Origin: Candidatus Omnitrophota bacterium
GTDB taxonomy: Bacteria > Omnitrophota > Omnitrophia > Omnitrophales > Aquincolibacteriaceae
Assembly (NCBI GenBank): GCA_022711115.1
Contig: JAKLFP010000001.1
Location: 453,183 to 517,182, forward strand
Reading direction: 5' to 3'
Length of the DNA stretch: 64,000 nt
Shown here in pieces: positions 10,397-24,289 of this stretch (its first letter is position 1; every line of letters begins with the position of its first letter). A program made the translations under genes and the position numbers. The notes under the pieces were generated by a model, which was not told the DNA's origin, did not search any database, and was given only the letters and a program-made list of their open reading frames with translations.

Positions 10397-10406
10397 TCCC
10401 CGGCCT

Positions 10407-12533
10407 ATGAGCTACGGCGAAAAACGTTCCCCAGGTTATAAAAAACACCCGGCGAACGTTTTTTTGCTTTTAACAGCCGTTTTTCTCCTGGGCCTTCTAC
10501 CCGCTGTTTATGCTAAAACCAAACAAACAGAGATTCAACCCAGCATTCAAGCCACACCCGGGCAGACCTCAAGAACCTATATTCAACAAATCGGGCCAGC
10601 AGGGGACGAAGAGACTGAAGAAACGATTAATGTTTACGGGTCTGTGCCTGCGAACAAGTCTCTTTTAACATCGAGTCGGTTTAGGGTGATCGATGATTTT
10701 AATTCGGGAAGTCTGAAGAATCAATTTGGCGATGATTGGAAGATCCATAAGGAAAAAGCCAAAAAAGCCGAGGTGAAAATAATTAAAGAAGATGGGCGAG
10801 GGGTTCGCTCGGGACACTCGCTTCAGATGCAATTCGACCTTCAAAAGAGGGAGCAGTTCGAATTATGGAGTTCTCTTGCCAAATTGAATATGACCAGGGC
10901 CGATTTTCTTGCGCTCAAGTGCCGGGTTAAAAACCGTGAAAAAGGGCAATTCGAAGGAAGGGTAAGAGTTGCGCTGAGCGATTGGGCCGGCAAGACAGTC
11001 GTGCGTGATATTACCGATACATGTCTGGAAACAAAAGAATGGAATGACGTTCTAGTGCCCATTTCTTTTTTTAAAGGAATTGATTTAAGGCAACTCGAGC
11101 GTATTGCTTTTTATGTTCTCTCAAGGACAAAAAGCACCGTGGGCGAAATAGACATCGATGAAGTAACTTTTTTTGGTCCCGAGGAAGTAGGCTTTGAAAG
11201 CGTAGCCGCTTCTTTAAAGGGATTCCCAAAAGTGGTTTTAGATTTTAAAAGAAGAGAAGAAATTTTAAATACCGCAAACGACAAGGAGCTTCTTTTAAAA
11301 ATCGCAAAAGACACATGGAAATATTTTGAGAACGGAGCAGACAAAGAACACCATTTGGTCGTAGACCATTTAAAGATCGGTGATTTCCCATTGGCGGCTA
11401 CTTACACATCGCCCACCAATATCGCCATGGATCTTTTGTCCACCGTCGCGGCCCGTGAACTTGGCATCCTTTCTTCAGAAAAAGCAGCGGAGCGTGTTCA
11501 AGCTGTTTTAAAAACACTTCAAGAAATGAAGCGATGGAAAGGTTTTTTTTATAACTACTATGAAGTGATCCGGCTTCAGGTTACCAGGCCGTTTATTTCG
11601 AGCGTGGATAACGGATGGCTTGCCATCTCGCTTGTAGTGCTCAGACAGGCTTTTCCCGGTAAGATCGCTGAGACGGCCACGGTTATTTTAAACGGATTCA
11701 ATTTCCAGGAATTTCTTGACCCGGAAAACAATCAGCTTTTCATCGGTTATGATGTAGAACGCAACGCCTTGACGCCTTACCATTATGGGTTGCTGGTGAC
11801 GGAAGCGCGCGCAATGAGCCTTTATGCGATTGGGAAAGGAGACCTGCCCCGCGAACATTGGTGGTTCCTCTACCGGACAGCGCCAAAAGCATGGACTTGG
11901 CAAAACCAGATTCCTAAAGGGAGAGAAGTAACGCAAGAAGGCGTGAATTATTTTCAAGGGTACTATGAGGACGATTCAAAAAAATTTGTTCCAAGCTGGG
12001 GAGGATCTCTTTTTGAATTTCTGATGCCGACCATAGTCATCAATGAAAAAAAATTTGCGCCTAAGGGTTTAGGTCTGAATGATCGAATTGTCACAGAACT
12101 CCAAAGGGACTATGCCCTGAAAGAAAAGAAATATCCTGTCTGGGGCATTTCTCCGGCAGCCGTGGGTAGCGGCAGGCGTTGGCAATACGGGGAATATGGA
12201 GTTAAAAAACTCAGCGTGAAAGGCTATCCGGATGCCGGCGTGATCACCCCGCATGTGACGTTTCTCGCTTTAGAGACTTTGCCCAAGGATGCTCTTAAAA
12301 ATATCCGGCAGCTCCTTAAATTTGACATTTACGGAGAATATGGGTTTTATGACTCGATAACGTTTCCGGGCAAGAGAGTGAATCGTCAATATCTGGCGCT
12401 GGATCAAGGCATGGTTCTTATCCCTATAGCGAATTATCTTAGGAACGGAGTCATTCAGAAATATTTTCATCAAGATTCTGTAGGACAAAAGGCAGAAGAG
12501 CTGTTAAAAAAGGAAGACTTTTTCAAAGAGTAA
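10407..12533 (+). CDS. Membrane-anchored/secreted glucoamylase-like (PF10091/GH144-like) putative glycoside hydrolase
   Basis: 708 aa. N-terminal hydrophobic anchor or signal peptide. The C-terminal roughly 450 aa is paralogous to the 56347..57621 protein (shared blocks TSPTNIAMDLLSTVAA / GSPSSIAATGFALAGY and WGISPAAVGSG / WGLSASLGPGG). Family assignment is from memory and not verified. Confidence 0.4.
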   Translation: MSYGEKRSPGYKKHPANVFLLLTAVFLLGLLPAVYAKTKQTEIQPSIQATPGQTSRTYIQQIGPAGDEETEETINVYGSVPANKSLLTSSRFRVIDDFNSGSLKNQFGDDWKIHKEKAKKAEVKIIKEDGRGVRSGHSLQMQFDLQKREQFELWSSLAKLNMTRADFLALKCRVKNREKGQFEGRVRVALSDWAGKTVVRDITDTCLETKEWNDVLVPISFFKGIDLRQLERIAFYVLSRTKSTVGEIDIDEVTFFGPEEVGFESVAASLKGFPKVVLDFKRREEILNTANDKELLLKIAKDTWKYFENGADKEHHLVVDHLKIGDFPLAATYTSPTNIAMDLLSTVAARELGILSSEKAAERVQAVLKTLQEMKRWKGFFYNYYEVIRLQVTRPFISSVDNGWLAISLVVLRQAFPGKIAETATVILNGFNFQEFLDPENNQLFIGYDVERNALTPYHYGLLVTEARAMSLYAIGKGDLPREHWWFLYRTAPKAWTWQNQIPKGREVTQEGVNYFQGYYEDDSKKFVPSWGGSLFEFLMPTIVINEKKFAPKGLGLNDRIVTELQRDYALKEKKYPVWGISPAAVGSGRRWQYGEYGVKKLSVKGYPDAGVITPHVTFLALETLPKDALKNIRQLLKFDIYGEYGFYDSITFPGKRVNRQYLALDQGMVLIPIANYLRNGVIQKYFHQDSVGQKAEELLKKEDFFKE

Positions 12534-12693: not shown

Positions 12694-13947
12694 ATGACAA
12701 AAGCCGTTTTTGAAAGGAGCGCAACCAATATGATGATCAAACAAATGCTCAAGGACCGTATTTTAACAGATAAAGAACGAAAGAATCTTGCGATTCTTGA
12801 GGTCATTCGAAAAAACGGACCGATTTCCAGGACGGACATTTCCAAGCTTACTGAATTAAATATCGTTACCGTTTCCAACTATGTGAATCATTACATCAAA
12901 AAAGGACTTGTTGTCGAGGGAGAGCTGGATGAATCCACGGGGGGACGCAAGCCGGTCCTCGTCGAACTTAATCCCAAATCCGGATATATCGTTGGCGTAG
13001 GACTTAATATGATGAGCATGGTGGGCGTGCTTGTAGATCTTGAAATTAATGTGATCAGCGAAGTGAAGCGTGAAAGATCCCCGGAAAATTCCGAAAAAGT
13101 CATTTTGGAAATGGTCGATCTTGCGGCCGAGATTATCGATAAGGCAGAAATTGATAAATCAAAAATCGTGGGCGTCGGCGTCGGCGTGCCAGGGATTATT
13201 GATGAACGTGGCCGGACCATTCGCTGGCCGCAAAGTCTCGGCGATAAGGATATTTCGGTTTGCTCTTCCATCAAAGACACCTTCGAACGAAGATTAAACA
13301 TCCCGACAATTGTTGAAAATGACGCGAATGCGGCGGTGCTCGGAGAAAAATGGCTTGGGCTGGATCGTGACGTTCGCCATATGCTGTACATGTTCTCAGG
13401 CGTTGGCTGCGGTATTCTGATAAATGAGGAAATTTATCGCGGGGCCAACGGGGCTGCCGGAGAGCTCGGGATTAACAGCGCCCATTCGACCAAAGAATAT
13501 TCTCACAAAATCGCGACCCAGCTTGGACGGTGGGAAATGGATATCGGGATGGTTCGTCACGCACGCGAAAGGATCGAAAAAGGAGAAGAATCGATCTTGA
13601 AAGATTTGGTGCGTGGGGACCTGAACCTGCTGACTTTTAAAGAGATTGTCAGGGGCGTCAAAGAAAAAGATTCCCTGACCCTTAAAGTTGTTGAACAGGC
13701 CGGGCAAGACCTTGGGAAAAAAATAGCTTTTATCGTAAACCTTTTTAATCCGGAAGTTGTCGTGATCGGCGGGGGCATCGAAGATTGCGGCGCCACGCTG
13801 CTGGATTCTATCAAAAGCACAGTAAAAGAATGGTCTGTGGAAGAAGCCGCGTCGCAGGTCAAAATCATCCCTTCTGCTTTTGGTGAAAACGCCGTTGCGC
13901 TTGGTGTTGTGGGCATCGTCGCCCGAGAAATTTTCGCGCAGGCTTAA
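12694..13947 (+). CDS. ROK-family transcriptional regulator (NagC/XylR-like)
   Basis: N-terminal winged HTH (LAILEVIRKNGPISRTDISKLTELNIVTVSNYV) followed by a ROK sugar-kinase-like domain with glycine-rich GVGVGVPG. Confidence 0.8.
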   Translation: MTKAVFERSATNMMIKQMLKDRILTDKERKNLAILEVIRKNGPISRTDISKLTELNIVTVSNYVNHYIKKGLVVEGELDESTGGRKPVLVELNPKSGYIVGVGLNMMSMVGVLVDLEINVISEVKRERSPENSEKVILEMVDLAAEIIDKAEIDKSKIVGVGVGVPGIIDERGRTIRWPQSLGDKDISVCSSIKDTFERRLNIPTIVENDANAAVLGEKWLGLDRDVRHMLYMFSGVGCGILINEEIYRGANGAAGELGINSAHSTKEYSHKIATQLGRWEMDIGMVRHARERIEKGEESILKDLVRGDLNLLTFKEIVRGVKEKDSLTLKVVEQAGQDLGKKIAFIVNLFNPEVVVIGGGIEDCGATLLDSIKSTVKEWSVEEAASQVKIIPSAFGENAVALGVVGIVAREIFAQA

Positions 13948-13971
13948 TTTTTTTCGGGGCTTGAAAACAAC

Positions 13972-15006
13972 ATGATGGCTCTTATTCAAGAGCTTAAAGA
14001 AAAGGTTCTTTCCGGAGGTGAGATTTCTTCTGGCGAGGCTCTTTGCTTGGCTGTGACTGAAGAGCCCGAAATCGTGGACGCTTTGCTTGAAGCGGCCCAT
14101 GAGATTACGCTTCATTTCTGTTCGCAAAAGCCGGACCTTTGTTCCCTCATCAATGCAAAAAGCTACCTTTGCGCCGAAGACTGCGGTTTTTGTTCCCAAT
14201 CTTCTCATTATCAAACCGGTGCAGCACGTTACCCGCTCATGGAACCTGAGGAAATCGTACGCGTTGCAAAACAGTGCGAAAAAAAAGGCGTCCAAAGTTT
14301 TTGCATAGTGACAAGCGGTGAAACCTTAAATGCCCGGGAATTTGAACAGGTTCTTGAGACTTTTCATCGATTGAACGCAGAAACCGGTTTAAATCTTGAC
14401 GGATCGTTAGGCAATTTGACTGCGGGGCAGATTTGCAAACTCAAAGAAGCCGGGATGCGTCGTTTTAATCACAACCTGCAGTGCTCGCGCGATTTTTATC
14501 CAAAAATTGTTTCCACGCATACTTATGATAAACGAATGGAAACGTTGAAATTTTTGGAGGAAAACAAAGTCGAAATTTGTTCCGGCGGGATCTTAGGAAT
14601 GGGAGAAAGCCGTGAAGACAGAATCAAGCTTGCGTTTGAACTGAAAGCTTACGACCTGCATTGCCTGCCTATTAATATCTTAAATCCAAGGCCTGGAACA
14701 CCGCTTTGCAATCAGCTGCCTATCAACCCTTTAGAAATCATAAAAACCATTGCTATTTATCGCTTCATCCACCCGAAAGCCAATATCAAACTTGCCGGAG
14801 GACGGGAGCTCAATCTCGGAGTCTATTTTCAGGAAAAAGCCTTGCGCGGCGGCGCGAATGGACTGGTAGTTGGCGGTTATCTCACCACCGCTGGGAATCC
14901 GCTTCAAGAAGATATCAACATGCTCAGGCGGACAGGTTTTCTTGTCGGGGCGAATCAAGAACAGCCTTGCTGTAAGGGCTCTCAAACTTCAGTAACAAGT
15001 TGTTAG
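13972..15006 (+). CDS. bioB: Biotin synthase
   Basis: Radical SAM CxxxCxxC (CAEDCGFCSQSS). Also BioB motifs FNHNL, CSGGILGMGE, PINILNPRPGTPL and GGRE. Has an extra Cys-rich C-terminal tail (PCCKGSQTSVTSC). Confidence 0.9.
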   Translation: MMALIQELKEKVLSGGEISSGEALCLAVTEEPEIVDALLEAAHEITLHFCSQKPDLCSLINAKSYLCAEDCGFCSQSSHYQTGAARYPLMEPEEIVRVAKQCEKKGVQSFCIVTSGETLNAREFEQVLETFHRLNAETGLNLDGSLGNLTAGQICKLKEAGMRRFNHNLQCSRDFYPKIVSTHTYDKRMETLKFLEENKVEICSGGILGMGESREDRIKLAFELKAYDLHCLPINILNPRPGTPLCNQLPINPLEIIKTIAIYRFIHPKANIKLAGGRELNLGVYFQEKALRGGANGLVVGGYLTTAGNPLQEDINMLRRTGFLVGANQEQPCCKGSQTSVTSC

Positions 15007-15009
15007 GCC

Positions 15010-15738
15010 TTGGAACCTCTTCTTAAAGAAAAAACAATCCTCATTACAGGCGGCACAAGCCAACTGGGGCAGTCCTTTGTCCGGAAAGCTCTTGAACAAG
15101 GCGCCAAAGTTTTTTTTACCTACTTTCGAAACAAGGACTTTGCAGAACAATTACAAAAACTTGGCGCTAAGGGCTACCCTTGCGACCTGGCCAACATCAA
15201 TTCCATACATGAATTTGTCGCGGTCTTCAGGAAAGACGCTGAGCAGCTCGATGTTCTTATCCATAATGCGGCAATGACTGCGGACACAACGATCGAAAAA
15301 ATGTCGGAACAAGAATGGGATGCGGTGATGAAGGTGAATTTAAAAGCACCGTTCTATCTCACGAAGCAACTTTTGCCGCTGCTTTTTAAAGTTACACCAA
15401 GCAAAGTTTTTATGGTGGTAAGCCGGGCAGGCCTGAGCGGTCTTTATGGTGCGGCGAATTATGCGGCTTCCAAGGGCGGGCTTATTGCCATGGCCAAAAC
15501 GCTTGCCAAGGAGCTTGGACGGAAGAAAGTTCTCGTCAATGCCGTCAACCCGGGATTTATGTGTTCGGGCATGACTGTCCACGTCCCCGACAAAGTTTTG
15601 CAGAAAAACATCGAGGAAAGCCCGCTCAAAACCTTTTCCGGTCCTGAGGAAGTTGCCGGTTTTCTTGTTTATCTTTCTTCAGGTCTGATGCGACAGGTGA
15701 CAGGCCAAGTCTTTCATTTTGAATCCCGCCCGATATAG
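15010..15738 (+). CDS. FabG-like short-chain dehydrogenase (3-oxoacyl-ACP reductase homolog) embedded in the bio operon
   Basis: TTG start 4 bp after the bioB stop. TGGTSQLG Rossmann motif, and the active-site region VVSRAGLSGLYGAANYAASKGG contains the S...YxxxK catalytic residues. Confidence 0.75.
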   Translation: MEPLLKEKTILITGGTSQLGQSFVRKALEQGAKVFFTYFRNKDFAEQLQKLGAKGYPCDLANINSIHEFVAVFRKDAEQLDVLIHNAAMTADTTIEKMSEQEWDAVMKVNLKAPFYLTKQLLPLLFKVTPSKVFMVVSRAGLSGLYGAANYAASKGGLIAMAKTLAKELGRKKVLVNAVNPGFMCSGMTVHVPDKVLQKNIEESPLKTFSGPEEVAGFLVYLSSGLMRQVTGQVFHFESRPI

Positions 15739-15783
15739 GATAGAATTCCATTCTACTCATCAGCCAGGAGAGACATTATTACT

Positions 15784-16989
15784 ATGAAGCGACGTGTTGT
15801 GATCACAGGAATAGGCATTCTTTCTCCGATCGGGAACACCCTTAAAGAATTCGAGGAAAGTCTGAAAAAAGGAGTTTGCGGCAAGGACGACGCCGACTCT
15901 TCCAAAGTTTTGGGGTATAAGTTTCCGCCGCTTTTTCGTCTCAAAAACTTTAATCCGCATTCTTATGGTACGCACCTTCTGGACCCTTTTATTCAATATG
16001 CGGTAGCGGCGGCAGAACAGGCAATCAAGGATGCGAAGTTTGACCTTCAGTCCGTCGATCCTTACAGCATCGCATTGTCCGTCAGTTCCAGCAAAGGAGG
16101 CGTTCACACTCTGGATCGCCTAAAAGAACGGTTTCTTAAAAAACCCACGGCCATTTTGGGCGCAAGGCTTTATACCAGCGCCGTTCCGAATTTTGCCGAC
16201 CAATGGATCGCCAGGCGAATGGGTATTAAAGGGCCGGCTAAATGTTATGTAGCCGCATGCGCCACCGGAACCGTTGCCGTCATCGCTGGTTTTCGGATGG
16301 TTTCAGAAGGTCAGGCGGAATATTGTTTGGCAGGAGCGACCGACGCTTCGATTACACCGTTGATGCTCGGGGGCTACCAGAACATGGGCGCTCTTGCGAA
16401 AAGGAATATCCGTCCTTTTGATAAACACCGTGATGGATTTTTAGTCGGAGAAGGCGCCGGCGTCCTTTTTCTTGAAACGCTCGAAAGCGCGAAAAAACGC
16501 GGGGCAAAAATTTACGGCGAGATCCTCGAGGCAGCGCATGGGCAAAACACCACAGATCCAATCGCTTTTGATCCCGGCGACCACGCATTGTCTTTTACCC
16601 TTAAAACATTGATGCATCGGGCCGGGCTTTCTCCGGAGGAAATCGATTATATCAACCTGCATGGCACCGGGACGCGGCATGGCGATTTGTATGAAACGCT
16701 TGAATTGAAAGAAACTTTCGGAAAGCAGGCATACAAAATTCCGATGAGCTCCACCAAAGGGATGACAGGCCACATGCTTGGCGCGACAGGGGCCGCGGAG
16801 ATTATCGCGACGCTTTTGGGGATGCAGGAAAGTTTTGTGCCGCCGACCATCGGACTCGATCAAAAAGACCCCGCGTGCGACTTGGATTACACACCGGGAG
16901 AAATGCGTTCTCAAAAAATCACAACAGCGATCAAAATTTCCATGGGTTTTGGCGGACAGGTCGCGGTGATGGCGCTGCGCCGGCTATGA
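15784..16989 (+). CDS. KAS I/II-type beta-ketoacyl-ACP synthase (FabF/FabB-like) embedded in the bio operon
   Basis: 401 aa. N-terminus RRVVITGIGILSPIGN. Active-site Cys in VAACATGTVAV. His motifs NLHGTGTRHGD and KGMTGHMLGATGAAE. Its stop overlaps the bioF start as ATGA. Confidence 0.8.
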   Translation: MKRRVVITGIGILSPIGNTLKEFEESLKKGVCGKDDADSSKVLGYKFPPLFRLKNFNPHSYGTHLLDPFIQYAVAAAEQAIKDAKFDLQSVDPYSIALSVSSSKGGVHTLDRLKERFLKKPTAILGARLYTSAVPNFADQWIARRMGIKGPAKCYVAACATGTVAVIAGFRMVSEGQAEYCLAGATDASITPLMLGGYQNMGALAKRNIRPFDKHRDGFLVGEGAGVLFLETLESAKKRGAKIYGEILEAAHGQNTTDPIAFDPGDHALSFTLKTLMHRAGLSPEEIDYINLHGTGTRHGDLYETLELKETFGKQAYKIPMSSTKGMTGHMLGATGAAEIIATLLGMQESFVPPTIGLDQKDPACDLDYTPGEMRSQKITTAIKISMGFGGQVAVMALRRL

Positions 16990-18146
16990 GAAAAATCTGC
17001 CTTTCAGAGCTAGAAGAACTTAAACAGAGAAATCTTTACAGGGAATTGCGCGTCCTTGAAAACCATCAAGGCACAAAGGCCTATTTTCAAGGCCGTGAAC
17101 TACTTCTCTTTTGCAGCAATGATTATCTCGGATTAAGTCGCCATTCCCGGGTTGTCCAAGCATCACAAAAGGCACTGAAGCAATATGGCATTGGCGCGGG
17201 CGCAGCAAGGCTTATTTCCGGTAGCACGGAGGCACACAAAAGACTCGAGCAGAAAATCGCATGCCTCAAACAAAAAGAAAGCGCGCTCGTTTTTGCAACA
17301 GGATTTCTCGCCAATCTCGGGATTTTAACGGCGTTTGCCGGAGAAGGCGATGTGATCATTATGGATAAGCTTTGTCATGCGTCACTCATTGACGGCGCGC
17401 GGCTCTCCAAATCCGAGTTGCGCGTTTTTCCTCATAAAAATTATCGCAAGTGCGAAGAACTTCTTCAAAAAAGCAAAGACGCGCGAAGGCGAATTTTGGT
17501 AAGCGAAACTGTTTTCAGCATGGATGGTGATCTTGCGGACTTGAGAGAACTTATCCGTCTGAAAGAAAAATACGATGCTTTTTTTATGGTAGATGACGCG
17601 CATGGCACGGGCGTGCTTGGCCCGTATGGGCGTGGGGCCACCGAGAACAAAAAAATAGCCGGAAAAATCGACATCATCATGGGAACGCTTTCCAAAGCTA
17701 TCGGCGGATTGGGAGGTTTTGTCGCCGCGGACAAAGCTTTGGTCCATTATCTTATTAATTTTGCACGCCCATTCATTTTCACAACCGCCTTGCCGCCGGT
17801 TTTATGCGAAGCCGCTTACGCAGCTTTTTGTGTGATAGAAGAAGAACCGGCCATCAGAAAAAAACTTTGGCAAAACATCCAAGCAATTCATAAGGGCTTA
17901 ACGAAGCTCGACTTTTCGATTGCAAAACCCGAATCCGCGATTTTACCTGTCCTCTTTGGCAATGAAAGAAAAGCCATAGCGGCTTTTGAAGCGTTGCTGA
18001 AGCAAGGAATTTTTATCCCGGCGGTCCGCTACCCGACTGTTCCAAAAGGCAAAGCCCGGCTCCGCATCACGGTCAGCGCTGCGCATACCCAAAAAGATAT
18101 TGCAAAATTACTTCTGGCATTCAAAAAACTGAAGGCCGCTAAATAG
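16986..18146 (+). CDS. bioF: 8-amino-7-oxononanoate synthase
   Basis: PLP-dependent alpha-oxoamine synthase with full-length BioF resemblance and a SKAIGG-type lysine region. Start chosen at the internal ATG (MRKICLSELEELK...) that overlaps the KAS stop (ATGA); the listed ORF begins 111 nt earlier. Confidence 0.85.
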   Translation: MRKICLSELEELKQRNLYRELRVLENHQGTKAYFQGRELLLFCSNDYLGLSRHSRVVQASQKALKQYGIGAGAARLISGSTEAHKRLEQKIACLKQKESALVFATGFLANLGILTAFAGEGDVIIMDKLCHASLIDGARLSKSELRVFPHKNYRKCEELLQKSKDARRRILVSETVFSMDGDLADLRELIRLKEKYDAFFMVDDAHGTGVLGPYGRGATENKKIAGKIDIIMGTLSKAIGGLGGFVAADKALVHYLINFARPFIFTTALPPVLCEAAYAAFCVIEEEPAIRKKLWQNIQAIHKGLTKLDFSIAKPESAILPVLFGNERKAIAAFEALLKQGIFIPAVRYPTVPKGKARLRITVSAAHTQKDIAKLLLAFKKLKAAK

Positions 18147-18159
18147 AGAGACATTTCTT

Positions 18160-18810
18160 ATGATGAGAAAAACGATTCTAGTTGTTTTTTTTCTGGCAAT
18201 GATTTTTCAAGGAAGAAGTTTTGCGGCGGAAGGGAAATCCGTCAAATTACCGCCGCCACAAAGAGAGAACGGGAAACCTTTAATGCAGGCGTTGGGCGAA
18301 CGGCATAGCAGCCGCGAGTTCAGCCCCGAAGAGATTTCTCTGCAAACGCTTTCCAATCTTCTTTGGGCTGCAAATGGAATAAATCGTCCGGATGGGCGCC
18401 GGACCGCCCCTTCGGCGCATAACGCACAGGAAATCGATATTTATGTCGCTAAGAGAGAGGCGCTTTATTTATACCATGCCGACACCCACGAATTAACGTC
18501 TGTAGCCCAGGGAGACTTCCGGTCTTTCACCGGAAAGCAGTCTTTTGTCAAGGATGCGCCGGTGAGCCTTATCTTTGTTACCGATCTTGAAAAGCTGAGC
18601 GGAGATTCCGAACAAGATGCGAATTTTTACAGCAATACAGATACAGGCTATATCAGCCAAAATGTTTATCTCTATTGTGCTTCGGAAGGTCTTGCCACAG
18701 TGGTTCTTGGGTGGATTGACCGGGATCAAATAAACACAATTCTGAAACTTCGTCCACGACAACGCGTTATTCTGACCCAGCCTGTGGGTTATCCTAAAAA
18801 CAAAAAATGA
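18160..18810 (+). CDS. Nitroreductase-family flavoprotein with an N-terminal Sec-type signal peptide
   Basis: 216 aa. Clear signal peptide (MMRKTILVVFFLAMIFQGRSFA/AE). Nitroreductase-fold blocks (RHSSREFSPEEISLQTLSNLLWAANGINR...). Stop overlaps the bioA start (ATGA). Confidence 0.65.
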   Translation: MMRKTILVVFFLAMIFQGRSFAAEGKSVKLPPPQRENGKPLMQALGERHSSREFSPEEISLQTLSNLLWAANGINRPDGRRTAPSAHNAQEIDIYVAKREALYLYHADTHELTSVAQGDFRSFTGKQSFVKDAPVSLIFVTDLEKLSGDSEQDANFYSNTDTGYISQNVYLYCASEGLATVVLGWIDRDQINTILKLRPRQRVILTQPVGYPKNKK

Positions 18811-20153
18811 ACAAAAACGATTTAGTTGCTAAAGACAAAAAATATATCTGGCATCCATTCACGCAGATGCGTGATTGGCAATCGGAAGACGTGCTGGTGA
18901 TTGAAAAAGGCGAGGGTTGTTATTTGGTCGATACCCAAGGCCGCCGGTATCTCGACGGCGTGTCGTCGCTTTGGTGCAATGTGCACGGTCATCGCGTGAA
19001 AGCGCTCGACCAGGCCATTAAAAAACAGCTCGGAAAAATCGCACACAGCACTTTTTTAGGTCTCACCCACCCGCTAGCCATTGAACTTGCCGAAAGGCTT
19101 CTCTCTATGGCGCCAAAAGGTTTAACGCGCGTTTTTTATTCGGATTCAGGGTCCGAAGCCATGGAGATCGCACTCAAAATGGCGTTTCAATATTGGCAAC
19201 AATGCGGCCAGACGGGAAAAAAGAAATTTGCGAAACTTACCCATGCTTATCACGGTGACACGATCGGATCGGTAAGCGTTGGCGGCATCGATCTTTTCCA
19301 TCAGATCTACAAACCGCTTCTTTTTGATACCTTCGCAGTGCCGTCGCCTTATTGCTACCGGTGGCCTTCTACAAGCGATCCCGAGGAGGTCAAAGAAGCA
19401 TCTTTGAAAGCCATGGAAGCACTCTTCAAAAAGCATCATAAAGAGATCGCCGCATTAGTCATGGAACCTTTGATGCAAGGTGCGGCCGGGATGATCGACC
19501 AGCCGAAAGGATATATTTTCCGTGCGCGGCAACTGACAGAAAAGTATAATATCCTCCTGATCTTTGATGAAGTCGCTACGGGATTTGGTCGGACAGGGAA
19601 GATGTTCGCCGCGGGGCATGAGAAAGTTACTCCGGACCTTATGGCCGTTGCCAAAGGCATTACGGGCGGCTATTTACCGCTTGCCGCGACGCTCACGACC
19701 GAAAAAATTTATAAGGCGTTTCTTGGCAACTACGAAGAATTCAAAACATTTTTTCACGGACATACTTATACTGCCAATCCGTTGGCCTGCGCCGTCGCCA
19801 TCGCAAATCTCAAGCTTTTTGAAAAACAGAAAACAATCCGGAAGACACAAGCCAAAATTCGGCTGGTACAGGATCGGCTAAAAGGTTTTTATAATCTTCG
19901 CCATGTCGGTGATATCCGGCAAGTTGGTATGATGATCGGGATTGAATTGGTCCGTGATAAAAAGACCAAAGAAACTTACGATTCCAAAGAAAAGATTGGC
20001 ATTCGAGTGATTGAAAAAGCGAGAAAAAAAGGAGCCATCTTGCGCCCGCTAGGGTCTGTGATCGTATTGATGCCTCCTTTAGGGATGCATGAAAGACAGC
20101 TTCAACAGTTATTGAATATCACCTACCGGTCGATAAAAGAAGTTACTGAATAG
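18807..20153 (+). CDS. bioA: Adenosylmethionine-8-amino-7-oxononanoate aminotransferase
   Basis: Class III aminotransferase with BioA N-terminus (YIWHPFTQM...LVIEKGEGCYLVDTQGRRYLDGVSSLWCNVHGH) and a PLP lysine region. Confidence 0.9.
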   Translation: MNKNDLVAKDKKYIWHPFTQMRDWQSEDVLVIEKGEGCYLVDTQGRRYLDGVSSLWCNVHGHRVKALDQAIKKQLGKIAHSTFLGLTHPLAIELAERLLSMAPKGLTRVFYSDSGSEAMEIALKMAFQYWQQCGQTGKKKFAKLTHAYHGDTIGSVSVGGIDLFHQIYKPLLFDTFAVPSPYCYRWPSTSDPEEVKEASLKAMEALFKKHHKEIAALVMEPLMQGAAGMIDQPKGYIFRARQLTEKYNILLIFDEVATGFGRTGKMFAAGHEKVTPDLMAVAKGITGGYLPLAATLTTEKIYKAFLGNYEEFKTFFHGHTYTANPLACAVAIANLKLFEKQKTIRKTQAKIRLVQDRLKGFYNLRHVGDIRQVGMMIGIELVRDKKTKETYDSKEKIGIRVIEKARKKGAILRPLGSVIVLMPPLGMHERQLQQLLNITYRSIKEVTE

Positions 20154-20198
20154 CAGTTTGACGCAAGCAACGCAACGACAGCTTTTTTATTAACCGTT

Positions 20199-20951
20199 AT
20201 GCGAGGGAATATGAAAGCGGCAGGGATTTTTATCACAGGGACAGATACCGACGTCGGTAAAACCGTCGTCGCTGCGGGGCTTGCTCTCGTTCTTCGTGAT
20301 CGCGGACTCAAGGTTGGTGTGATGAAGCCAGTCGCGACAGGATGTTATGGCCTGGAGGAGAGGCTTATTCCTCAGGATGCCGCTTTTCTGATGGAGGCCG
20401 CACAAAATCAATTTGCCCCTTTAACGAGCCCGTCGCGTTTCCGGAATCCTCTGGCGCCAAGCGTTGCAGCCATGCTTGAAAAAAAAGAAGTCAATATTCA
20501 AAACATTCTCAAATGCTACCAACAGCTCCAGAAACATTATGATTTTCTTATCGTAGAAGGCGTAGGAGGTCTGATGGTGCCGCTCAAAAAAGATTATTAT
20601 GTGGCGAACCTCATTCGCGAGATGGGGCTGCCAATTCTAATTGTTTCTTATGCAGGACTCGGGGCCATCAACCATACGCTTTTGACCGTGGATGCGGCTG
20701 TGATCCGCGGTTTGGAATTACGGGGTATTATTTTTAACCGTGTTTCTGTTACGAATTATTCCTTGGCTGAGTTGACCAATCCCAAGGTGATTCACGATCT
20801 TTCGGGAGTTCCTATTTTGGGAAGTTTGCCAGATGTCGAAGGATTAAATCTGGATAGTTGTCAATTCGGCAGCCTCAAAGAGATCTTTCAGGAGCGAATC
20901 CAAGTCGACAAAATCCTTGGAGGTTTTACGCATCTAGCTCCTAGAAGATAG
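20199..20951 (+). CDS. bioD: Dethiobiotin synthetase
   Basis: P-loop FITGTDTDVGKT and BioD-like length (250 aa). Confidence 0.85.
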   Translation: MRGNMKAAGIFITGTDTDVGKTVVAAGLALVLRDRGLKVGVMKPVATGCYGLEERLIPQDAAFLMEAAQNQFAPLTSPSRFRNPLAPSVAAMLEKKEVNIQNILKCYQQLQKHYDFLIVEGVGGLMVPLKKDYYVANLIREMGLPILIVSYAGLGAINHTLLTVDAAVIRGLELRGIIFNRVSVTNYSLAELTNPKVIHDLSGVPILGSLPDVEGLNLDSCQFGSLKEIFQERIQVDKILGGFTHLAPRR

Positions 20952-20968: not shown

Positions 20969-22285
20969 TTGTCCACTCGCAACTTCGTTGGCATCCGCCT
21001 TGAAAGGAAAAAAGAGGCCAGTCTGCTTAACTGGAACCTCAAGCGGCCCTACACCCCCGAGAGAGTTCGTATTTCACTTCCAGCGACTGCCTACCCTTGC
21101 GTTCACGTCGGGAACAATGTGCAAACAGGGCAGAAGATCGCAGATCCCGTCGGGCCTGGGTGTGCGACCGTGCATTCAAGCATGGAAGGAGTCATCGAAA
21201 AGATAGCGATTTTTCCGGATGCGACAGGCGGCGAGAGTATGACGGTAGAGGTTCGCAGGCAAGGGGACCCCAAAGCGCCCGCAACATTCGAAAATGTTCG
21301 AAAAAACTGGGAGATTCTCAAGGAAGAAGAGCTTTTAGACATCTTTCAAAATTCCGGGATCGTTACCACAGATGCCTTGATGCAACCGGTACACGCCAAA
21401 ATAAAAAAAAATGAACAGCATCCAACTTTGATTATCAACGGCTGCGAACCTGAGCCGTACGTTACTTGTGAACAGGTGCTGGCCATGGCACATCCCCTGG
21501 AAATATTAAAAGGCGCCGAGATCTTAAAAAAAACTACGCGGGCAAACCAAATCCTTTTTGTTTTTGAAGATTGCAACTTGGAGTTAGTGGAACTTTTCAA
21601 AAGCAAAATTTATTTTTTAAAATGGGAACATGTCAAAGTGCGAACAGTGCCGGCCGTTTACCCGCAAGGACATGAAACCACATTGCTTCAGCGCTGGTTT
21701 TCCGGCAAAGAAGACCAGGCGATTGTGTTTCCAGCCTCCACGGCTTTTGCCGTTTATGAGGCGGTAGTTCACCAAAAGCCTTTTTATGAAAGAGTCTTGA
21801 CCGTAGGAGGCGAGTGTGTGATAGAACCGCGGAGTCTTTGGCTGCCTCTTGGAATTTCTTTTCGGGATGCCATTCACACCTGTAAGGGCGTTATGCGCGA
21901 ACCTCAGAAGGTTATCATGGGTGGACCCATGGCCGGAACAGCACAAGAGAATCTGGAAGTTTCTGTGATGGCGGGGACAAACGCTATTTTAGCGCTACCC
22001 AAAGAGGTTATAAGGGATAAAGCTGAAGAACCGTGCATTCGTTGCGGTGCCTGCGTTGACATGTGTCCGGTGTCTTTGTCACCCGCTATGATTACCTTGG
22101 CGGCGGAACACGGCGAATTTGAACTTGCGGAGAAATGGGATGTTTCAGCCTGCATCGAATGCGGTAATTGTAGTTATGTCTGCCCATCAAAGCGGCCGAT
22201 GTTGAAATGGATAAGAAAGGCTCAGGCGGAGATGGCCCAAACGGCTTTGCCCAAAAGTCAAAAAAACCATGAATACGCATCTTAA
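20969..22285 (+). CDS. RnfC/PduS-family iron-sulfur subunit homolog lacking the glycine-rich NADH/flavin motif
   Basis: TTG start with AAAGGA RBS, 18 bp after the bioD stop. N-terminal RnfC_N-like segment (LPATAYPCVHVGNNVQTGQKIADPVGPGCATVHSSMEGVIEKI). Two ferredoxin motifs (CIRCGACVDMCP, CIECGNCSYVCP). At the place where RnfC has GxGGAGFP the sequence reads SGIVTTDALMQP. Confidence 0.6.
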   Translation: MSTRNFVGIRLERKKEASLLNWNLKRPYTPERVRISLPATAYPCVHVGNNVQTGQKIADPVGPGCATVHSSMEGVIEKIAIFPDATGGESMTVEVRRQGDPKAPATFENVRKNWEILKEEELLDIFQNSGIVTTDALMQPVHAKIKKNEQHPTLIINGCEPEPYVTCEQVLAMAHPLEILKGAEILKKTTRANQILFVFEDCNLELVELFKSKIYFLKWEHVKVRTVPAVYPQGHETTLLQRWFSGKEDQAIVFPASTAFAVYEAVVHQKPFYERVLTVGGECVIEPRSLWLPLGISFRDAIHTCKGVMREPQKVIMGGPMAGTAQENLEVSVMAGTNAILALPKEVIRDKAEEPCIRCGACVDMCPVSLSPAMITLAAEHGEFELAEKWDVSACIECGNCSYVCPSKRPMLKWIRKAQAEMAQTALPKSQKNHEYAS

Positions 22286-23111
22286 AACATTGTCACCCCA
22301 CATTCGTTCCAGAGATTCTGTCGCCAAGAGATACTGGGGACTCACGCTTGCTTCGGTGCCTGTTTTTGTCGCCGTTATCTTAGGGGGCCAAGCGGGTGCT
22401 CTGAGAGTTCTTTTGTTCAGCATTATCAGCGCAGTAGCGTTTGATTTTTTGGGAGCGAAAATTTTGTTTAAAAAAGAACGTGTCAATAACGGTGAGGCGG
22501 TGCTAAGCGCGACACTTTTGACGCTTCTCCTTCCCAGGAATTGTCCTTTTGAGATTGCCGTATTCGGGATTTTTTTGGCGGTTTTTGTGGTCAAAGAACT
22601 TTTTGGGGGAACAGGCTCCTACCTTTTTCACCCCGTGCTGGCTGCCCGCATTTTTCTTCAAATGAGTTTTCCAGGATTTTTTGAAAACAGCGGCATGATC
22701 TTGGAAGAAAAAAGCGCTCTTTGGATACTTGGGGGGCTTTTAGTCAGCGGGGTGGCTGTCATAAGTCAGAAAAACAATCGGGAAATACCGCTTTTTTATA
22801 TTATGATTTCCTTGCTTTGTGTTTTATTGTTCCATTCTGGCATGGAGTCTTTAACGGTTTTAAATTGGATTTTTTTTACGGCATTTTTTCTTTTGGGAGA
22901 TTCCGTTGCGATGCCTCTGACTCGGAAAGGGACACGGATCTTTGTCTTAGGGGCGGCGCTTTTAAATTTCTTTTTCGAAGCGAAAGGTTTTTCTATGGCG
23001 GCGGCAGGCTACGCCATTTTATTGATGAATGCATTAACGCCATGGCTTGACGTGATGATGAAACCTGCCGCTTACAGAGCCAAGATCCATCTCAAGGCCA
23101 CCTATCCATGA
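22269..23111 (+). CDS. RnfD/NqrB-family membrane subunit homolog (short, no recognisable FMN-attachment motif)
   Basis: 280 aa polytopic. SPHIRS near the N-terminus, GGTGSYLFHPVLAARIFLQMSFP and a C-terminal block AFFLLGDSVAMPLTRKGTRIFVLGAALLNFFFEAKGFSMAAAGYAILLMNALTPWLD typical of RnfD/NqrB. No S/TGAT(P)L motif was found. Confidence 0.6.
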   Translation: MNTHLKTLSPHIRSRDSVAKRYWGLTLASVPVFVAVILGGQAGALRVLLFSIISAVAFDFLGAKILFKKERVNNGEAVLSATLLTLLLPRNCPFEIAVFGIFLAVFVVKELFGGTGSYLFHPVLAARIFLQMSFPGFFENSGMILEEKSALWILGGLLVSGVAVISQKNNREIPLFYIMISLLCVLLFHSGMESLTVLNWIFFTAFFLLGDSVAMPLTRKGTRIFVLGAALLNFFFEAKGFSMAAAGYAILLMNALTPWLDVMMKPAAYRAKIHLKATYP

Positions 23112-23257
23112 ACATAAAAAAAACGGTTTTAACAATGCTTCAGTATTTGTTCTTTGTTCTTTTTGTGGCCGTATTGCTGATCACGCTTTCGGGCGCAAAA
23201 ATGTTGAGCCAAGAGGTTCTGAAGAATGAATGGTATCGGGAGTTGATCCGGCCATGA
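23108..23257 (+). CDS. 49-aa single-TM protein translationally coupled to both neighbours (possible RnfG N-terminal anchor remnant)
   Basis: Not in the ORF track because it is under 60 aa. Its ATG overlaps the rnfD-like stop (ATGA at 23108-23111) and its stop overlaps the next gene's ATG (ATGA at 23254-23257). Sequence MNIKKTVLTMLQYLFFVLFVAVLLITLSGAKMLSQEVLKNEWYRELIRP. Confidence 0.4.
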   Translation: MNIKKTVLTMLQYLFFVLFVAVLLITLSGAKMLSQEVLKNEWYRELIRP

Positions 23258-23775
23258 AAATTCCCGACAGTCTTTTGTCCCGCATCATTTTTGCGTATCT
23301 TCCTTTCATGGTCTATGCCTTTGACCTTGAAAAGGCTTGGATCGCGGTGCTTTGTGTTGTTGCTGTTTTTTGGCTCACCGTTTTTTTCTTCTGGTTTACA
23401 CGGAATCTTTTCCCCGAAAAGCTCCGAAGCGAAGTTTTCTTCTTTTGGCTTCTTGCATGGGCCCAAGCGGTTTGGTATTTCACAAAACTTCAGCCTTTAT
23501 GGGCGCTCAGCGTTTTTTTCTTGATCCCTACCTCTTTTCTTGAGCCGAGCCAGAAAGCCAGCCGGGTGCGCGTTTTTTCTCGAGTGGTTCCGAGGTATTT
23601 TTGGGAAAGATTTTTGGCTGGATTTGGTTTTATCGGTTTTGTGATTGTGATGGCACTTGTTCAGGAGGTTTTAGGGCGCCAGTTCGGGATGATGTCTTTT
23701 CAACGGCCGGCCGGCATTTTGCTTTTACTTTCTTTAGCTGCTTTTTTATGGAAAAACCAGCCATATCAAAGGTGA
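23254..23775 (+). CDS. RnfE/RnfA (Rnf-Nqr) family membrane subunit homolog, divergent
   Basis: Polytopic membrane protein. The C-terminal region FLAGFGFIGFVIVMALVQEVLGRQFG resembles the RnfE block [25 protein letters not shown]. The track lists an alternative start at 23230. Confidence 0.45.
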   Translation: MKIPDSLLSRIIFAYLPFMVYAFDLEKAWIAVLCVVAVFWLTVFFFWFTRNLFPEKLRSEVFFFWLLAWAQAVWYFTKLQPLWALSVFFLIPTSFLEPSQKASRVRVFSRVVPRYFWERFLAGFGFIGFVIVMALVQEVLGRQFGMMSFQRPAGILLLLSLAAFLWKNQPYQR

Positions 23776-23776
23776 G

Positions 23777-24289
23777 ATGATGGTTTATTCTCTAATTATT
23801 ACTTTCGGTTTGTTGTTTGCGATTCGCGGCGTCAAAAGCTTGACGCTGCAAAATCCGGAGAAAACACTTCCTGAAGTCTGGCGCCAGGCCGTCGATTTTT
23901 GTTTGACGCTTGCGTTCACCCTTTTGTATTTTGAAGCCTCATTATGCATTGTAGGTATCCAGAGCTTTGTCCAGGACCATGCCTTGTTGGTGATTGGATT
24001 TTTGGCGTATGTCTTTTCAAAATACCAAAAGAAAACGGATATCTTTTTCCTCTCCATGACAGTCCTCACCTTTTTAATTTATTCCGAACAAAAGAATTTG
24101 CTGCACGGTCTCTTTTGGGTGGGTGCCGTGAGCATTGGGATAGCTTTGTTCCGGACTTGTTTTCTTGGATTGCGATACAAACTTTTGTTTTCTCGTGTTC
24201 CCAAGATGATGCAAGGGTGGCCGATTCTTTGCCTTTTGGCATCTCTTTTATCCCTGGCTCTTTGGGGAATTGGGAGGCTGATTTTCTAA
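23777..24289 (+). CDS. RnfA/RnfE (Rnf-Nqr) family membrane subunit homolog, divergent
   Basis: 170 aa polytopic. The C-terminal RVPKMMQGWPILCLLASLLSLALWGIG resembles the RnfA C-terminus [26 protein letters not shown]. Start is 2 bp after the previous stop. Confidence 0.45.
   Translation: MMVYSLIITFGLLFAIRGVKSLTLQNPEKTLPEVWRQAVDFCLTLAFTLLYFEASLCIVGIQSFVQDHALLVIGFLAYVFSKYQKKTDIFFLSMTVLTFLIYSEQKNLLHGLFWVGAVSIGIALFRTCFLGLRYKLLFSRVPKMMQGWPILCLLASLLSLALWGIGRLIF

What the first reader, a model, noticed from the sequence alone, without database searches (positions are those of the whole stretch)
18160..18810. Exported nitroreductase-fold flavoprotein wedged between bioF and bioA
This 216-aa nitroreductase-family protein has an unmistakable Sec-type signal peptide and no twin-arginine. 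It sits inside a cytoplasmic biosynthetic operon with its stop overlapping the bioA start. Cofactor-containing nitroreductases are normally cytoplasmic, so a periplasmic one co-translated with biotin enzymes is unexpected. It could be a non-canonical step, such as processing or salvage of a biotin precursor at the envelope, or the hydrophobic segment may be an uncleaved N-terminal membrane anchor.
Basis: partly seen in the sequence, partly recalled or inferred. Interest (0 to 1): 0.55.

Follow-up and report, generated by a model that had tools for sequence, protein, structure and literature searches.

The report
Exported flavoprotein riding in biotin operon
A secreted FMN-binding nitroreductase-fold protein really does sit between two biotin-synthesis genes, but it belongs to a very large, already crystallised family that is almost never linked to biotin genes, and the spot it occupies holds unrelated genes or nothing in close relatives, so it is most likely a long-resident passenger rather than a new biotin enzyme.

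Summary
ORF 18160-18810 (+) encodes a 216-aa PF00881 protein with a Sec-type signal peptide (MMRK / TILVVFFLAMIF / QGRSFA|AE) and no twin arginine. Its stop overlaps the bioA start (ATGA). It lies inside ROK-bioB-FabG-like-FabF-like-bioF-[X]-bioA-bioD-rnfCD of a Candidatus Omnitrophota genome.

The protein belongs to a very large exported family with solved FMN structures: B. thetaiotaomicron BT_0217 (8CQS) and B. fragilis BF3017 (3HOI), at 44-45% identity and TM 0.81/0.90. In that family, 115 of the 120 closest homologues carry the same kind of signal peptide.

Of 80 loci from other species, only one (also Omnitrophota) has bio genes nearby. No neighbour is conserved across the family. In syntenic operons of close relatives the bioF|bioA junction is a variable slot. 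It holds this gene, this gene plus other genes, a lipoprotein, a GGDEF protein, a HipA/nuclease set, or nothing.

The most likely history is one old capture followed by repeated loss, which points to a passenger gene. One caveat remains: nitroreductase-like genes are genetically or positionally implicated in the Desulfovibrio-type biotin pathway (PMC10102598). I could not test whether those genes belong to this family.

The parts
18160..18810 (+). Gene for the exported nitroreductase-fold (BT_0217/BF3017-family) flavoprotein precursor, 216 aa
   Evidence: ORF; PF00881 at E=1e-28; PDB sequence hits 8cqs at 1e-46 and 3hoi at 9e-46; fold TMq 0.81 / TMt 0.90
18160..18225 (+). Sec-type signal peptide (residues 1-22: MMRK / TILVVFFLAMIF / QGRSFA), predicted to be cleaved after Ala22
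   Evidence: Sequence; tripartite pattern in 115/120 homologues; family consensus FA-xE; AlphaFold gives helix 4-17 and then pLDDT<50 for residues 16-24; the PDB constructs of homologues start just after this point
18226..18807 (+). Mature FMN-binding domain (residues 23-216). It carries the RHSSREF phosphate-binding-type motif (R48, R52), invariant W69, N88, Y95, K145, Y157, C173, and the C-terminal GYPK
   Evidence: Invariant columns; alignment to the FMN-bound structures 8cqs and 3hoi; model pLDDT 79, pTM 0.78
18807..18810 (+). ATGA overlap: the bioA start codon overlaps the stop codon of the nitroreductase gene
   Evidence: Sequence; ORF ends
13972..15006 (+). bioB (biotin synthase)
   Evidence: TIGR00433, 356 bits against a cut-off of 225
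15010..15738 (+). FabG-like SDR (3-oxoacyl-ACP reductase-like) belonging to the bio operon
   Evidence: PF13561/PF00106; TIGR01830 at 189 bits, below its cut-off; conserved at this position in all relatives examined
15784..16989 (+). FabF-like beta-ketoacyl synthase belonging to the bio operon
   Evidence: PF00109/PF02801; TIGR03150 at 359 bits, below its cut-off of 494; conserved synteny
16986..18146 (+). bioF (8-amino-7-oxononanoate synthase); its ATG overlaps the KAS stop
   Evidence: TIGR00858, 464 bits against a cut-off of 426; identical 386-aa protein P0121
18807..20153 (+). bioA
   Evidence: TIGR00508, 563 bits against a cut-off of 405
20199..20951 (+). bioD
   Evidence: TIGR00347, 168 bits against a cut-off of 83
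18147..18806 (.). The variable slot between bioF and bioA. In this window the nitroreductase gene fills it; in relatives its content differs
   Evidence: Slot length ranges from 78 to 5311 bp, with different contents across syntenic operons

Best explanation
The gene encodes a precursor flavoprotein of the BT_0217/BF3017 family, which lies on the SagB-like branch of the nitroreductase superfamily. The proposed mechanism is inferred. The precursor is exported unfolded through Sec and cleaved after Ala22. It folds in the periplasm into the usual nitroreductase-type dimer and picks up non-covalent FMN there. It then acts as a two-electron oxidoreductase or dehydrogenase on a small envelope or periplasmic substrate, without NAD(P)H or acyl-ACP, because neither is available outside the cytoplasm. 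The natural substrate is unknown for the whole family. Its place in the bio operon reflects history rather than biochemistry. The bioF|bioA junction of this Omnitrophota clade is a permissive insertion slot. An ancestor captured the gene there once, and it has been co-transcribed with bioA ever since. It has been lost or replaced repeatedly while the bio genes stayed intact. It is therefore a passenger and not a step of biotin synthesis.
For: Family identity: PF00881 at E=1e-28. Sequence hits to the FMN-bound crystal structures 8CQS (BT_0217) at 1e-46, 3HOI (BF3017) at 9e-46 and 3HJ9 at 1e-36. The model has pLDDT 79, and the top Foldseek hits are 3hoi and 8cqs at TMq 0.81, TMt 0.90, 44-45% identity; the next best are the SagB-like oxidases ThcOx, BmdC and McbC (TMq 0.65-0.74), ahead of NfsA/NfsB (0.55-0.59). 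Export: 115/120 homologues have a signal peptide and only 6 have RR, and all bio-linked clade members shown keep it. Size and spread: more than 8000 hits (search saturated); 2828 representatives of 50%-identity clusters at E<=1e-10; at least 571 species loci across many diderm anaerobe phyla. No family-wide link to biotin: bio genes lie nearby in only 1 of 80 species loci, and no KAS or SDR gene is nearby. The most common neighbour cluster occurs in 8 of 79 loci. Variable slot in syntenic operons. History: the bio-linked genes fall in one clade that excludes all 79 non-linked ones. In the BioF tree, operons with and without the gene interleave. Composition and codon usage match the neighbouring genes. 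Orthologue-level relatives sit outside bio operons: P0026/L094 at 63% identity, and P0043/L095 at 60% between YdbH-like/DUF1318 and AsmA/DUF748 envelope genes.
Against: The gene has stayed in the operon over considerable divergence (nitroreductase identity down to about 61%). It is always on the operon strand and is tightly packed against bioF or bioA, which would also fit selection for co-expression. Absence from the operon does not prove absence from the genome, and I could not scan the genomes whose operons lack it. Published work implicates nitroreductase-like proteins in exactly this FabF/FabG-type biotin pathway. DVU1220 mutants of D. vulgaris fail to grow without biotin, and S. fumaroxidans and Desulfobacter vibrioformis carry a nitroreductase-like gene inside their bio clusters (PMC10102598). 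The operon here has no recognisable dehydratase, enoyl reductase or ACP. Export, cleavage, FMN loading and the redox partner are all inferred, not shown.
Confidence: 0.62

Rival explanations
1. The protein is a real accessory component of the Desulfovibrio-type (FabF/FabG-dependent) biotin pathway. One version makes it the counterpart of the nitroreductase-like proteins implicated in Desulfobacterota. Another has it acting at the envelope on a biotin vitamer or pimelate-type precursor, for salvage, repair or redox processing.
For: The gene has been retained in the operon across a whole clade and is translationally coupled to bioA. DVU1220, a nitroreductase, is needed for growth without biotin, and nitroreductase-like genes sit inside the bio clusters of S. 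fumaroxidans and D. vibrioformis (PMC10102598). The operon lacks an obvious enoyl reductase.
Against: The conserved Sec signal peptide places the protein where acyl-ACP and NAD(P)H are absent, so the enoyl-ACP reductase role proposed in the paper cannot apply. DVU1220 is predicted to bind a [4Fe-4S] cluster, whereas the mature protein here has a single Cys. The gene is missing from at least 6 of about 12 sampled syntenic operons whose bio genes are intact. Zero of 79 other species loci link the family to bio, KAS or SDR genes. Close relatives lie in non-bio contexts.
Confidence: 0.2
2. The hydrophobic N-terminus is an uncleaved signal anchor, or the annotated start is wrong. The flavoprotein would then be membrane-tethered or actually cytoplasmic.
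For: No experimental localisation exists for any family member. SignalP and TMHMM could not be run. AlphaFold models residues 4-17 as a helix.
Against: The hydrophobic core is only 12 residues and is followed by Q-G-R, which is too short for a stable transmembrane helix. The motif S-F-A|A-E is canonical, and the family consensus is FA-xE. The n/h/c architecture is kept in 115/120 homologues despite sequence drift. There is no alternative upstream start, and the next Met (M14) lacks a ribosome-binding site. Even an uncleaved anchor would leave the domain outside the cytoplasm.
Confidence: 0.06
3. It is a SagB/ThcOx-type azoline dehydrogenase of a RiPP or thiazole/oxazole pathway, as the NCBI name 'SagB/ThcOx family dehydrogenase' suggests.
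For: TIGR03605 (SagB domain) is the best NCBIfam hit, at E=1e-15. ThcOx, BmdC and McbC are the best structural matches outside the protein's own family.
Against: The score of 57.4 is below the 78.4 cut-off. Identity to those enzymes is only 18-22%. No cyclodehydratase, YcaO or precursor-peptide gene is next to it here, and no partner recurs in the 79 other loci. Known SagB-type enzymes work in the cytoplasm, while this family is exported.
Confidence: 0.03

Closest known systems
BT_0217 of Bacteroides thetaiotaomicron (PDB 8CQS) and BF3017 of B. fragilis (PDB 3HOI); more distantly Reut_A1228 (PDB 3HJ9)
   Same: Same family: 44-45% identity over the whole mature domain, TMq 0.81 / TMt 0.90, rmsd about 2 A. 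The same RxSxR FMN-type motif is present. The crystallised constructs begin at the same mature N-terminus (..K-x-[IV]-x-LP-x-P..), with the signal peptide removed. Physiological function is unknown. BT_0217 appears only in a list of putative nitroreductases deleted together in a drug-metabolism study (PMC13171619).
   Different: The phylum differs (Omnitrophota against Bacteroidota).
Nitroreductase-like proteins of the Desulfovibrio-type biotin pathway (DVU1220; bio-cluster genes of Syntrophobacter fumaroxidans and Desulfobacter vibrioformis; PMC10102598)
   Same: A nitroreductase-fold gene is associated with a bio cluster that contains dedicated FabF-like and FabG-like genes instead of bioC/bioH, in an anaerobe.
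   Different: DVU1220 is unlinked and is predicted to carry FMN plus a [4Fe-4S] cluster; the protein here has one Cys and a signal peptide. The paper proposes a cytoplasmic enoyl-ACP reductase role, which is incompatible with export.
SagB / ThcOx / McbC / BmdC FMN-dependent azoline oxidases
   Same: They are the nearest structurally characterised branch of the superfamily (TMq 0.65-0.74). They share LLWAAxG and R-T-x-PSA-type motifs and use FMN without NAD(P)H.
   Different: The score is below the TIGR03605 cut-off, identity is 18-22%, there is no biosynthetic partner, and the protein is exported.
Classical NAD(P)H nitroreductases NfsA/NfsB/Frp
   Same: The PF00881 fold and an FMN-binding dimer.
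   Different: NF008033 scores 23 bits against a cut-off of 223, and TMq is 0.55-0.59. These enzymes are cytoplasmic and NAD(P)H-dependent.
Sec-exported flavoproteins that acquire flavin outside the cytoplasm (for example Shewanella FccA, or ApbE-flavinylated RnfG/NqrC); cited from general knowledge, not tested here
   Same: They are precedents showing that a flavoprotein can be exported by Sec and loaded with flavin after export.
   Different: The folds differ. No ApbE-type flavinylation motif (SGAT-like) is visible in this protein, so any FMN would be bound non-covalently.

Membership tests
Nitroreductase superfamily (Pfam PF00881) | Score above the Pfam gathering threshold across the domain | tested here: met
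   101.1 bits against 23.5, residues 47-211, covering profile positions 3-167 of 167
BT_0217/BF3017-like exported nitroreductase family | Full-length similarity in sequence and fold to the solved members | tested here: met
   phmmer 1e-46 and 9e-46; Foldseek E about 1e-22, TMt 0.90, 44-45% identity
BT_0217/BF3017-like exported nitroreductase family | N-terminal Sec-type signal peptide ahead of the conserved K-I-x-LP-x-PQ mature start | tested here: met
   Present in the window protein and in 115/120 homologues. This is a rule-based test; SignalP was not available
BT_0217/BF3017-like exported nitroreductase family | FMN actually bound and the protein actually in the periplasm | not testable with these tools
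   Only conservation of the RxSxR motif and homology to FMN-bound crystal structures
SagB/ThcOx peptide dehydrogenases (TIGR03605) | Score above the NCBIfam cut-off | tested here: not met
   57.4 bits against a cut-off of 78.4
SagB/ThcOx peptide dehydrogenases (TIGR03605) | Adjacent cyclodehydratase/YcaO and precursor peptide genes | tested here: not met
   The neighbours are bioF and bioA. No neighbour recurs in the 79 other loci
NfsA/NfsB-type NAD(P)H nitroreductases | Equivalog-level match | tested here: not met
   NF008033 scores 23.3 bits against a cut-off of 223
Iodotyrosine deiodinase (IYD) and BluB subfamilies | Significant sequence match to IYD structures or a BluB model | tested here: not met
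   IYD chains 3tnz and 5yak match only at E=0.017-0.077. No BluB model appears among NCBIfam hits at E<=0.01
Tat-exported cofactor proteins | Twin-arginine motif (S/T-R-R-x-F-L-K) in the n-region | tested here: not met
   The n-region is MMRK; RR occurs in only 6/120 homologues
DVU1220-type biotin-linked nitroreductase (FMN + [4Fe-4S]) | Cysteine ligands for a 4Fe-4S cluster | tested here: not met
   The mature protein has one Cys. DVU1220 is described as FMN + [4Fe4S] in PMC10102598
Bio-cluster nitroreductase-like genes of S. fumaroxidans / D. vibrioformis | Sequence orthology to those genes | not testable with these tools
   The sequences could not be retrieved. A profile search with Desulfobacterota family members returned only MAG proteins, and the paper's supplement holds no identifiers
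Core biotin-synthesis operon gene | Conserved presence in syntenic bio operons of close relatives | tested here: not met
   Absent from L084, L085, L086, L087, L088, L089, L090 and the P0149 contig; present in the window, L001, L002-L004 and L093

The most novel reading that the evidence does not exclude
The exported flavoprotein is functionally tied to the Desulfovibrio-type, FabF/FabG-dependent biotin pathway. Trotter et al. noticed nitroreductase-like genes in Desulfobacterota bio clusters; if those are members of this same Sec-exported family, the mysterious nitroreductase requirement of the pathway would be an extracytoplasmic redox step, such as processing or salvage of a pimelate or biotin-type precursor at the envelope, and not the proposed enoyl-ACP reductase.
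Probability: 0.12. Interest if true: 0.75.

Novelty: new member of a known kind. Interest (0 to 1): 0.3.

Why it matters
Taken at face value, the finding suggested an unknown envelope step in biotin synthesis. The evidence instead points to a passenger gene sitting in a hypervariable operon junction. This is a useful caution against inferring function from operon position alone.

Two things of wider interest remain. First, there is a very large, highly conserved family of Sec-exported FMN proteins in anaerobic diderm bacteria. At least 571 species loci were found, members share more than 50% identity across phyla, and two Bacteroides crystal structures exist. No physiological function, electron partner or flavin-loading route is known for it.

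Second, a nitroreductase-like protein is genetically required for the still unresolved Desulfovibrio-type pimeloyl-ACP pathway. If the clustered nitroreductase-like genes of that pathway turn out to be this exported family, the current enoyl-reductase hypothesis would fail and the pathway would need rethinking.

Tried and rejected
- Literature searches for 8CQS, 8CQT, BF3017, 'periplasmic nitroreductase', 3HOI/3HJ9, and nitroreductase superfamily plus signal peptide found nothing relevant. BT_0217 appears only in a list of nine deleted putative nitroreductases.
- The metagenome-contig scan with BioF gave only one usable syntenic locus, L090.
- I tried to reach the S. fumaroxidans and D. vibrioformis bio-cluster nitroreductase genes with a profile of Desulfobacterota family members. 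It returned only unnamed MAG proteins. The paper's supplements held no identifiers.
- Recent horizontal transfer is rejected. GC (0.468), GC3 (0.449) and codon-usage cosine (0.91) are all within the range of the neighbouring bio genes.
- A second copy in the window is rejected; tblastn finds only the gene itself.
- An internal promoter or terminator isolating the gene is rejected. Consensus scans found no plus-strand site between bioF and bioA, and overall counts were at shuffle level.
- A link to the downstream rnfC/rnfD genes was considered, with the protein as a periplasmic FMN partner. I dropped it because relatives keep rnfCD after losing the nitroreductase gene.
- An enoyl-ACP reductase role is rejected on topology, because the signal peptide is conserved even in the bio-linked clade.

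Full report
**1. What is there**

The window carries a tightly packed plus-strand operon.
- A ROK-family regulator or kinase lies at 12694-13947.
- bioB (13972-15006) follows.
- Next is a FabG-like SDR (15010-15738).
- Next is a FabF-like ketoacyl synthase (15784-16989).
- bioF (16986-18146) follows.
- The gene in question is at 18160-18810.
- bioA (18807-20153) and bioD (20199-20951) come next.
- An rnfC-like gene (20969-22285) and an rnfD-like gene (22269-23111) follow directly.

BioB, BioF, BioA and BioD all exceed their NCBIfam equivalog cut-offs. The 216-aa product matches Pfam Nitroreductase (PF00881) at E=9.9e-29. An identical protein is on record from a Candidatus Omnitrophota MAG, where it is named 'SagB/ThcOx family dehydrogenase' (P0001). 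The stop codon overlaps the bioA start as ATGA.

**2. The signal peptide is real**

The N-terminus reads MMRK, then TILVVFFLAMIF, then QGRSFA|AEG. That is a positively charged n-region, a 12-residue hydrophobic core, and a c-region with Ser at -3 and Ala at -1. There is no twin arginine.

Among the 120 closest homologues, 115 show the same architecture although the sequences themselves have drifted. Only 6 contain RR and 1 has a lipobox. The family consensus ends in FA-xE, immediately before the conserved mature start K-I-x-LP-x-PQ-x-x-GKPLMQAL.

AlphaFold, run on a 28-sequence alignment, gave pLDDT 79 and pTM 0.78. It models residues 4-17 as a detached helix, followed by a low-confidence linker at residues 16-24. 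The crystallised homologues begin exactly at the predicted mature N-terminus.

A 12-residue core followed by Q-G-R is too short for a membrane anchor. No alternative start would remove the peptide. SignalP and TMHMM were not available, so this conclusion rests on rules and conservation.

**3. What family it belongs to**

The best sequence matches among solved structures are these:
- 8CQS, E=1e-46.
- 3HOI, the 'FMN-dependent nitroreductase BF3017' of Bacteroides fragilis, E=9e-46.
- 3HJ9 (Reut_A1228), E=1e-36.

Foldseek on the model returns the same three at TMq 0.81, TMt 0.82-0.91 and 39-45% identity, and it identifies 8CQS as BT_0217 of B. thetaiotaomicron. The next structural neighbours are the SagB-like FMN oxidases ThcOx, BmdC and McbC and the Ava_2154 protein (TMq 0.65-0.74). 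These rank ahead of NfsA/NfsB-type NAD(P)H nitroreductases (0.55-0.59).

The protein nevertheless fails the SagB model cut-off (57.4 against 78.4 bits) and the NfsA equivalog (23 against 223 bits). Matches to iodotyrosine deiodinase are insignificant (E=0.017 or worse). No BluB model is hit at E<=0.01.

R48 and R52, in the RHSSREF motif aligned to the FMN-bound structures, are invariant, as are the C-terminal GYPK and many other positions. The mature protein has one cysteine, so it cannot hold an Fe-S cluster.

The only literature I found on BT_0217 lists it among nine putative nitroreductases deleted together in a drug-metabolism study (PMC13171619). No physiological role is known.

**4. Size and spread of the family**

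The word-indexed search saturated at 8000 hits, all about 210-220 aa long. An exhaustive HMMER scan of 1.84 billion cluster representatives found 5463 representatives at E<=0.001, 2828 at E<=1e-10 and 511 at E<=1e-30.

The best 80 loci come from many anaerobic diderm phyla:
- Omnitrophota, Planctomycetota, Desulfobacterota and Bacteroidota.
- Verrucomicrobiota, Acidobacteriota, Nitrospirota and Elusimicrobiota.
- Latescibacterota, Zixibacteria and others.

**5. Is the family linked to biotin genes?**

I ran tblastn with the window's BioB, SDR, KAS, BioF, BioA, BioD and RnfC against those 80 loci, which carry up to 10 kb of flank on each side. Only L004, an Omnitrophica MAG (UBA1443) whose copy is 65% identical to the window protein, has bio genes next to the nitroreductase gene. 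In one further locus, a bioF-like gene with 42% identity lies 7 kb away (L007). The other 78 loci gave no bio, KAS or SDR hit.

I then clustered all neighbouring ORFs within 6 kb. No conserved partner emerged; the most frequent neighbour family occurs in 8 of 79 loci. The family behaves as a stand-alone gene.

**6. Is the gene conserved in syntenic operons of close relatives?**

The ROK-bioB-SDR-KAS-bioF ... bioA-bioD-rnfC backbone is conserved in Omnitrophota relatives whose BioF is 61-81% identical. What varies is the content of the bioF|bioA junction:

| Source | Content of the bioF\|bioA junction |
|---|---|
| Window | Nitroreductase gene alone |
| L001 | DUF6804 membrane protein plus nitroreductase gene |
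| L093 | MORN-repeat protein plus nitroreductase gene |
| L002-L004 | Nitroreductase gene plus a TolC/MacA/MacB efflux operon |
| L084, L085, probably L090 | 375-aa protein with TPR and an HEFAH motif; the L084 copy has a lipobox |
| L086 | GGDEF protein |
| L089 | DUF1016/HipA/HTH on the opposite strand plus an SNase |
| L087 | At least five unrelated genes |
| P0149 contig and L088 | Nothing; 78 bp between the bioF and bioA matches in L088 |

**7. History of the gene in this clade**

In a neighbour-joining tree of the family, all bio-linked copies fall in one clade. Five were verified directly and eight were inferred from shared contig lengths; one such inference was checked and confirmed. 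That clade excludes all 79 non-linked copies from other species.

In the BioF tree, operons with and without the gene interleave. GC, GC3 and codon usage of the gene are indistinguishable from its neighbours. The simplest reading is one old capture at the base of this Omnitrophota clade, vertical inheritance, and several independent losses or replacements.

One member of the same clade, P0026/L094 at 63% identity, is not bio-linked. A slightly more distant Omnitrophota copy, P0043/L095 at 60% identity, lies between YdbH-like/DUF1318 and AsmA/DUF748 genes, which is an envelope context.

**8. The complication**

A literature search turned up Trotter et al. 2023 (PMC10102598). The paper covers Desulfovibrio vulgaris, whose bio cluster contains FabF-, FabG-, FabZ- and ACP-like genes instead of bioC/bioH. 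In that organism an unlinked nitroreductase, DVU1220 (FMN plus [4Fe-4S]), is specifically required for growth without biotin.

In Syntrophobacter fumaroxidans and Desulfobacter vibrioformis, such clusters contain a nitroreductase-like gene. The authors suggest this gene could be the missing enoyl-ACP reductase.

The Omnitrophota operon is of the same general type, with FabF-like and FabG-like genes and no bioC, bioH, bioW, bioI or bioZ. This raises the prior that the nitroreductase-fold gene is not there by accident.

Four points argue against that reading:
- The protein here has a conserved signal peptide, even in the bio-linked clade, so it cannot act on acyl-ACP.
- It lacks cysteines for an Fe-S cluster.
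- It is dispensable for operon integrity in many relatives.
- The family shows no bio linkage elsewhere, including in eight Desulfobacterota loci.

I could not obtain the S. fumaroxidans or D. vibrioformis sequences. Whether they belong to this exported family remains the key open test. I also could not check whether genomes whose operon lacks the gene carry a copy elsewhere.

**9. Verdict**

The 'non-canonical biotin step' part is not supported. The gene is best explained as a long-resident passenger in a hypervariable operon junction (confidence about 0.6). A genuine accessory role in the Desulfovibrio-type biotin pathway remains a minority possibility (about 0.2).

It is a new member of a known kind. 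Interest is modest, at 0.3.

Noticed in passing
window 18147-18806; L001, L002-L004, L084-L090, L093: The bioF|bioA junction of this Omnitrophota bio operon is a hypervariable insertion slot, 78 bp to 5.3 kb long. In different relatives it holds the nitroreductase gene, DUF6804, a MORN-repeat protein, a TolC/MacAB efflux operon, a TPR/HExxH protein (the L084 copy is a lipoprotein), a GGDEF protein, HipA/HTH/SNase, or nothing. Many of these genes encode envelope proteins.
   Followed up: yes
window 12694-20951: The bio operon is of the Desulfovibrio type, with dedicated FabG-like and FabF-like genes between bioB and bioF and no bioC/H/W/I/Z. Unlike D. vulgaris, it has no dedicated ACP or FabZ-like gene. 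A ROK-family gene always precedes it in relatives. How the pimeloyl moiety is made here is unknown.
   Followed up: partly
window 20969-24289: rnfC-like and rnfD-like genes follow bioD directly and are conserved there in relatives. After them come only two small ORFs: 23230-23775, with a weak Rnf-Nqr match at E=0.0035, and 23777-24289, with no Pfam match. A T2SSE ATPase gene follows those. No recognisable RnfG/E/A/B is present, so this may be a reduced or divergent Rnf-like module.
   Followed up: partly
window 16875-16989: The mechanical ORF for bioF starts at GTG 16875 (423 aa) and would overlap the KAS gene by 115 nt. Homologues and the identical database protein (386 aa) indicate that the true start is ATG 16986, an ATGA overlap with the KAS stop.
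   Followed up: yes
L095 4309-7676: In another Omnitrophota genome a 60%-identical family member sits between YdbH-like plus DUF1318 genes and an AsmA/DUF748 gene. These belong to families associated with outer-membrane lipid transport, which hints at an envelope-related role for the family.
   Followed up: no
L084 7152-8279; L085 7221-8345: A 375-aa protein has a TPR region and an HEFAHC (HExxH-type) motif, and no significant Pfam family. The L084 copy has a lipoprotein signal (LFFSGC). It occupies the same slot in three relatives and may be an uncharacterised lipoprotein metallopeptidase.
   Followed up: partly
proteins P0241-P0243, P0248, P0259: Some representatives of the family are much longer (406-997 aa) and contain two nitroreductase-like stretches or extra domains. 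Fused or duplicated architectures therefore exist.
   Followed up: no
window 7922-12533: Upstream of the operon lie a GH94 glycan phosphorylase (7922-10396) and a DUF3131/glucoamylase-like protein (10407-12533). Both are conserved next to the ROK gene in relatives.
   Followed up: no
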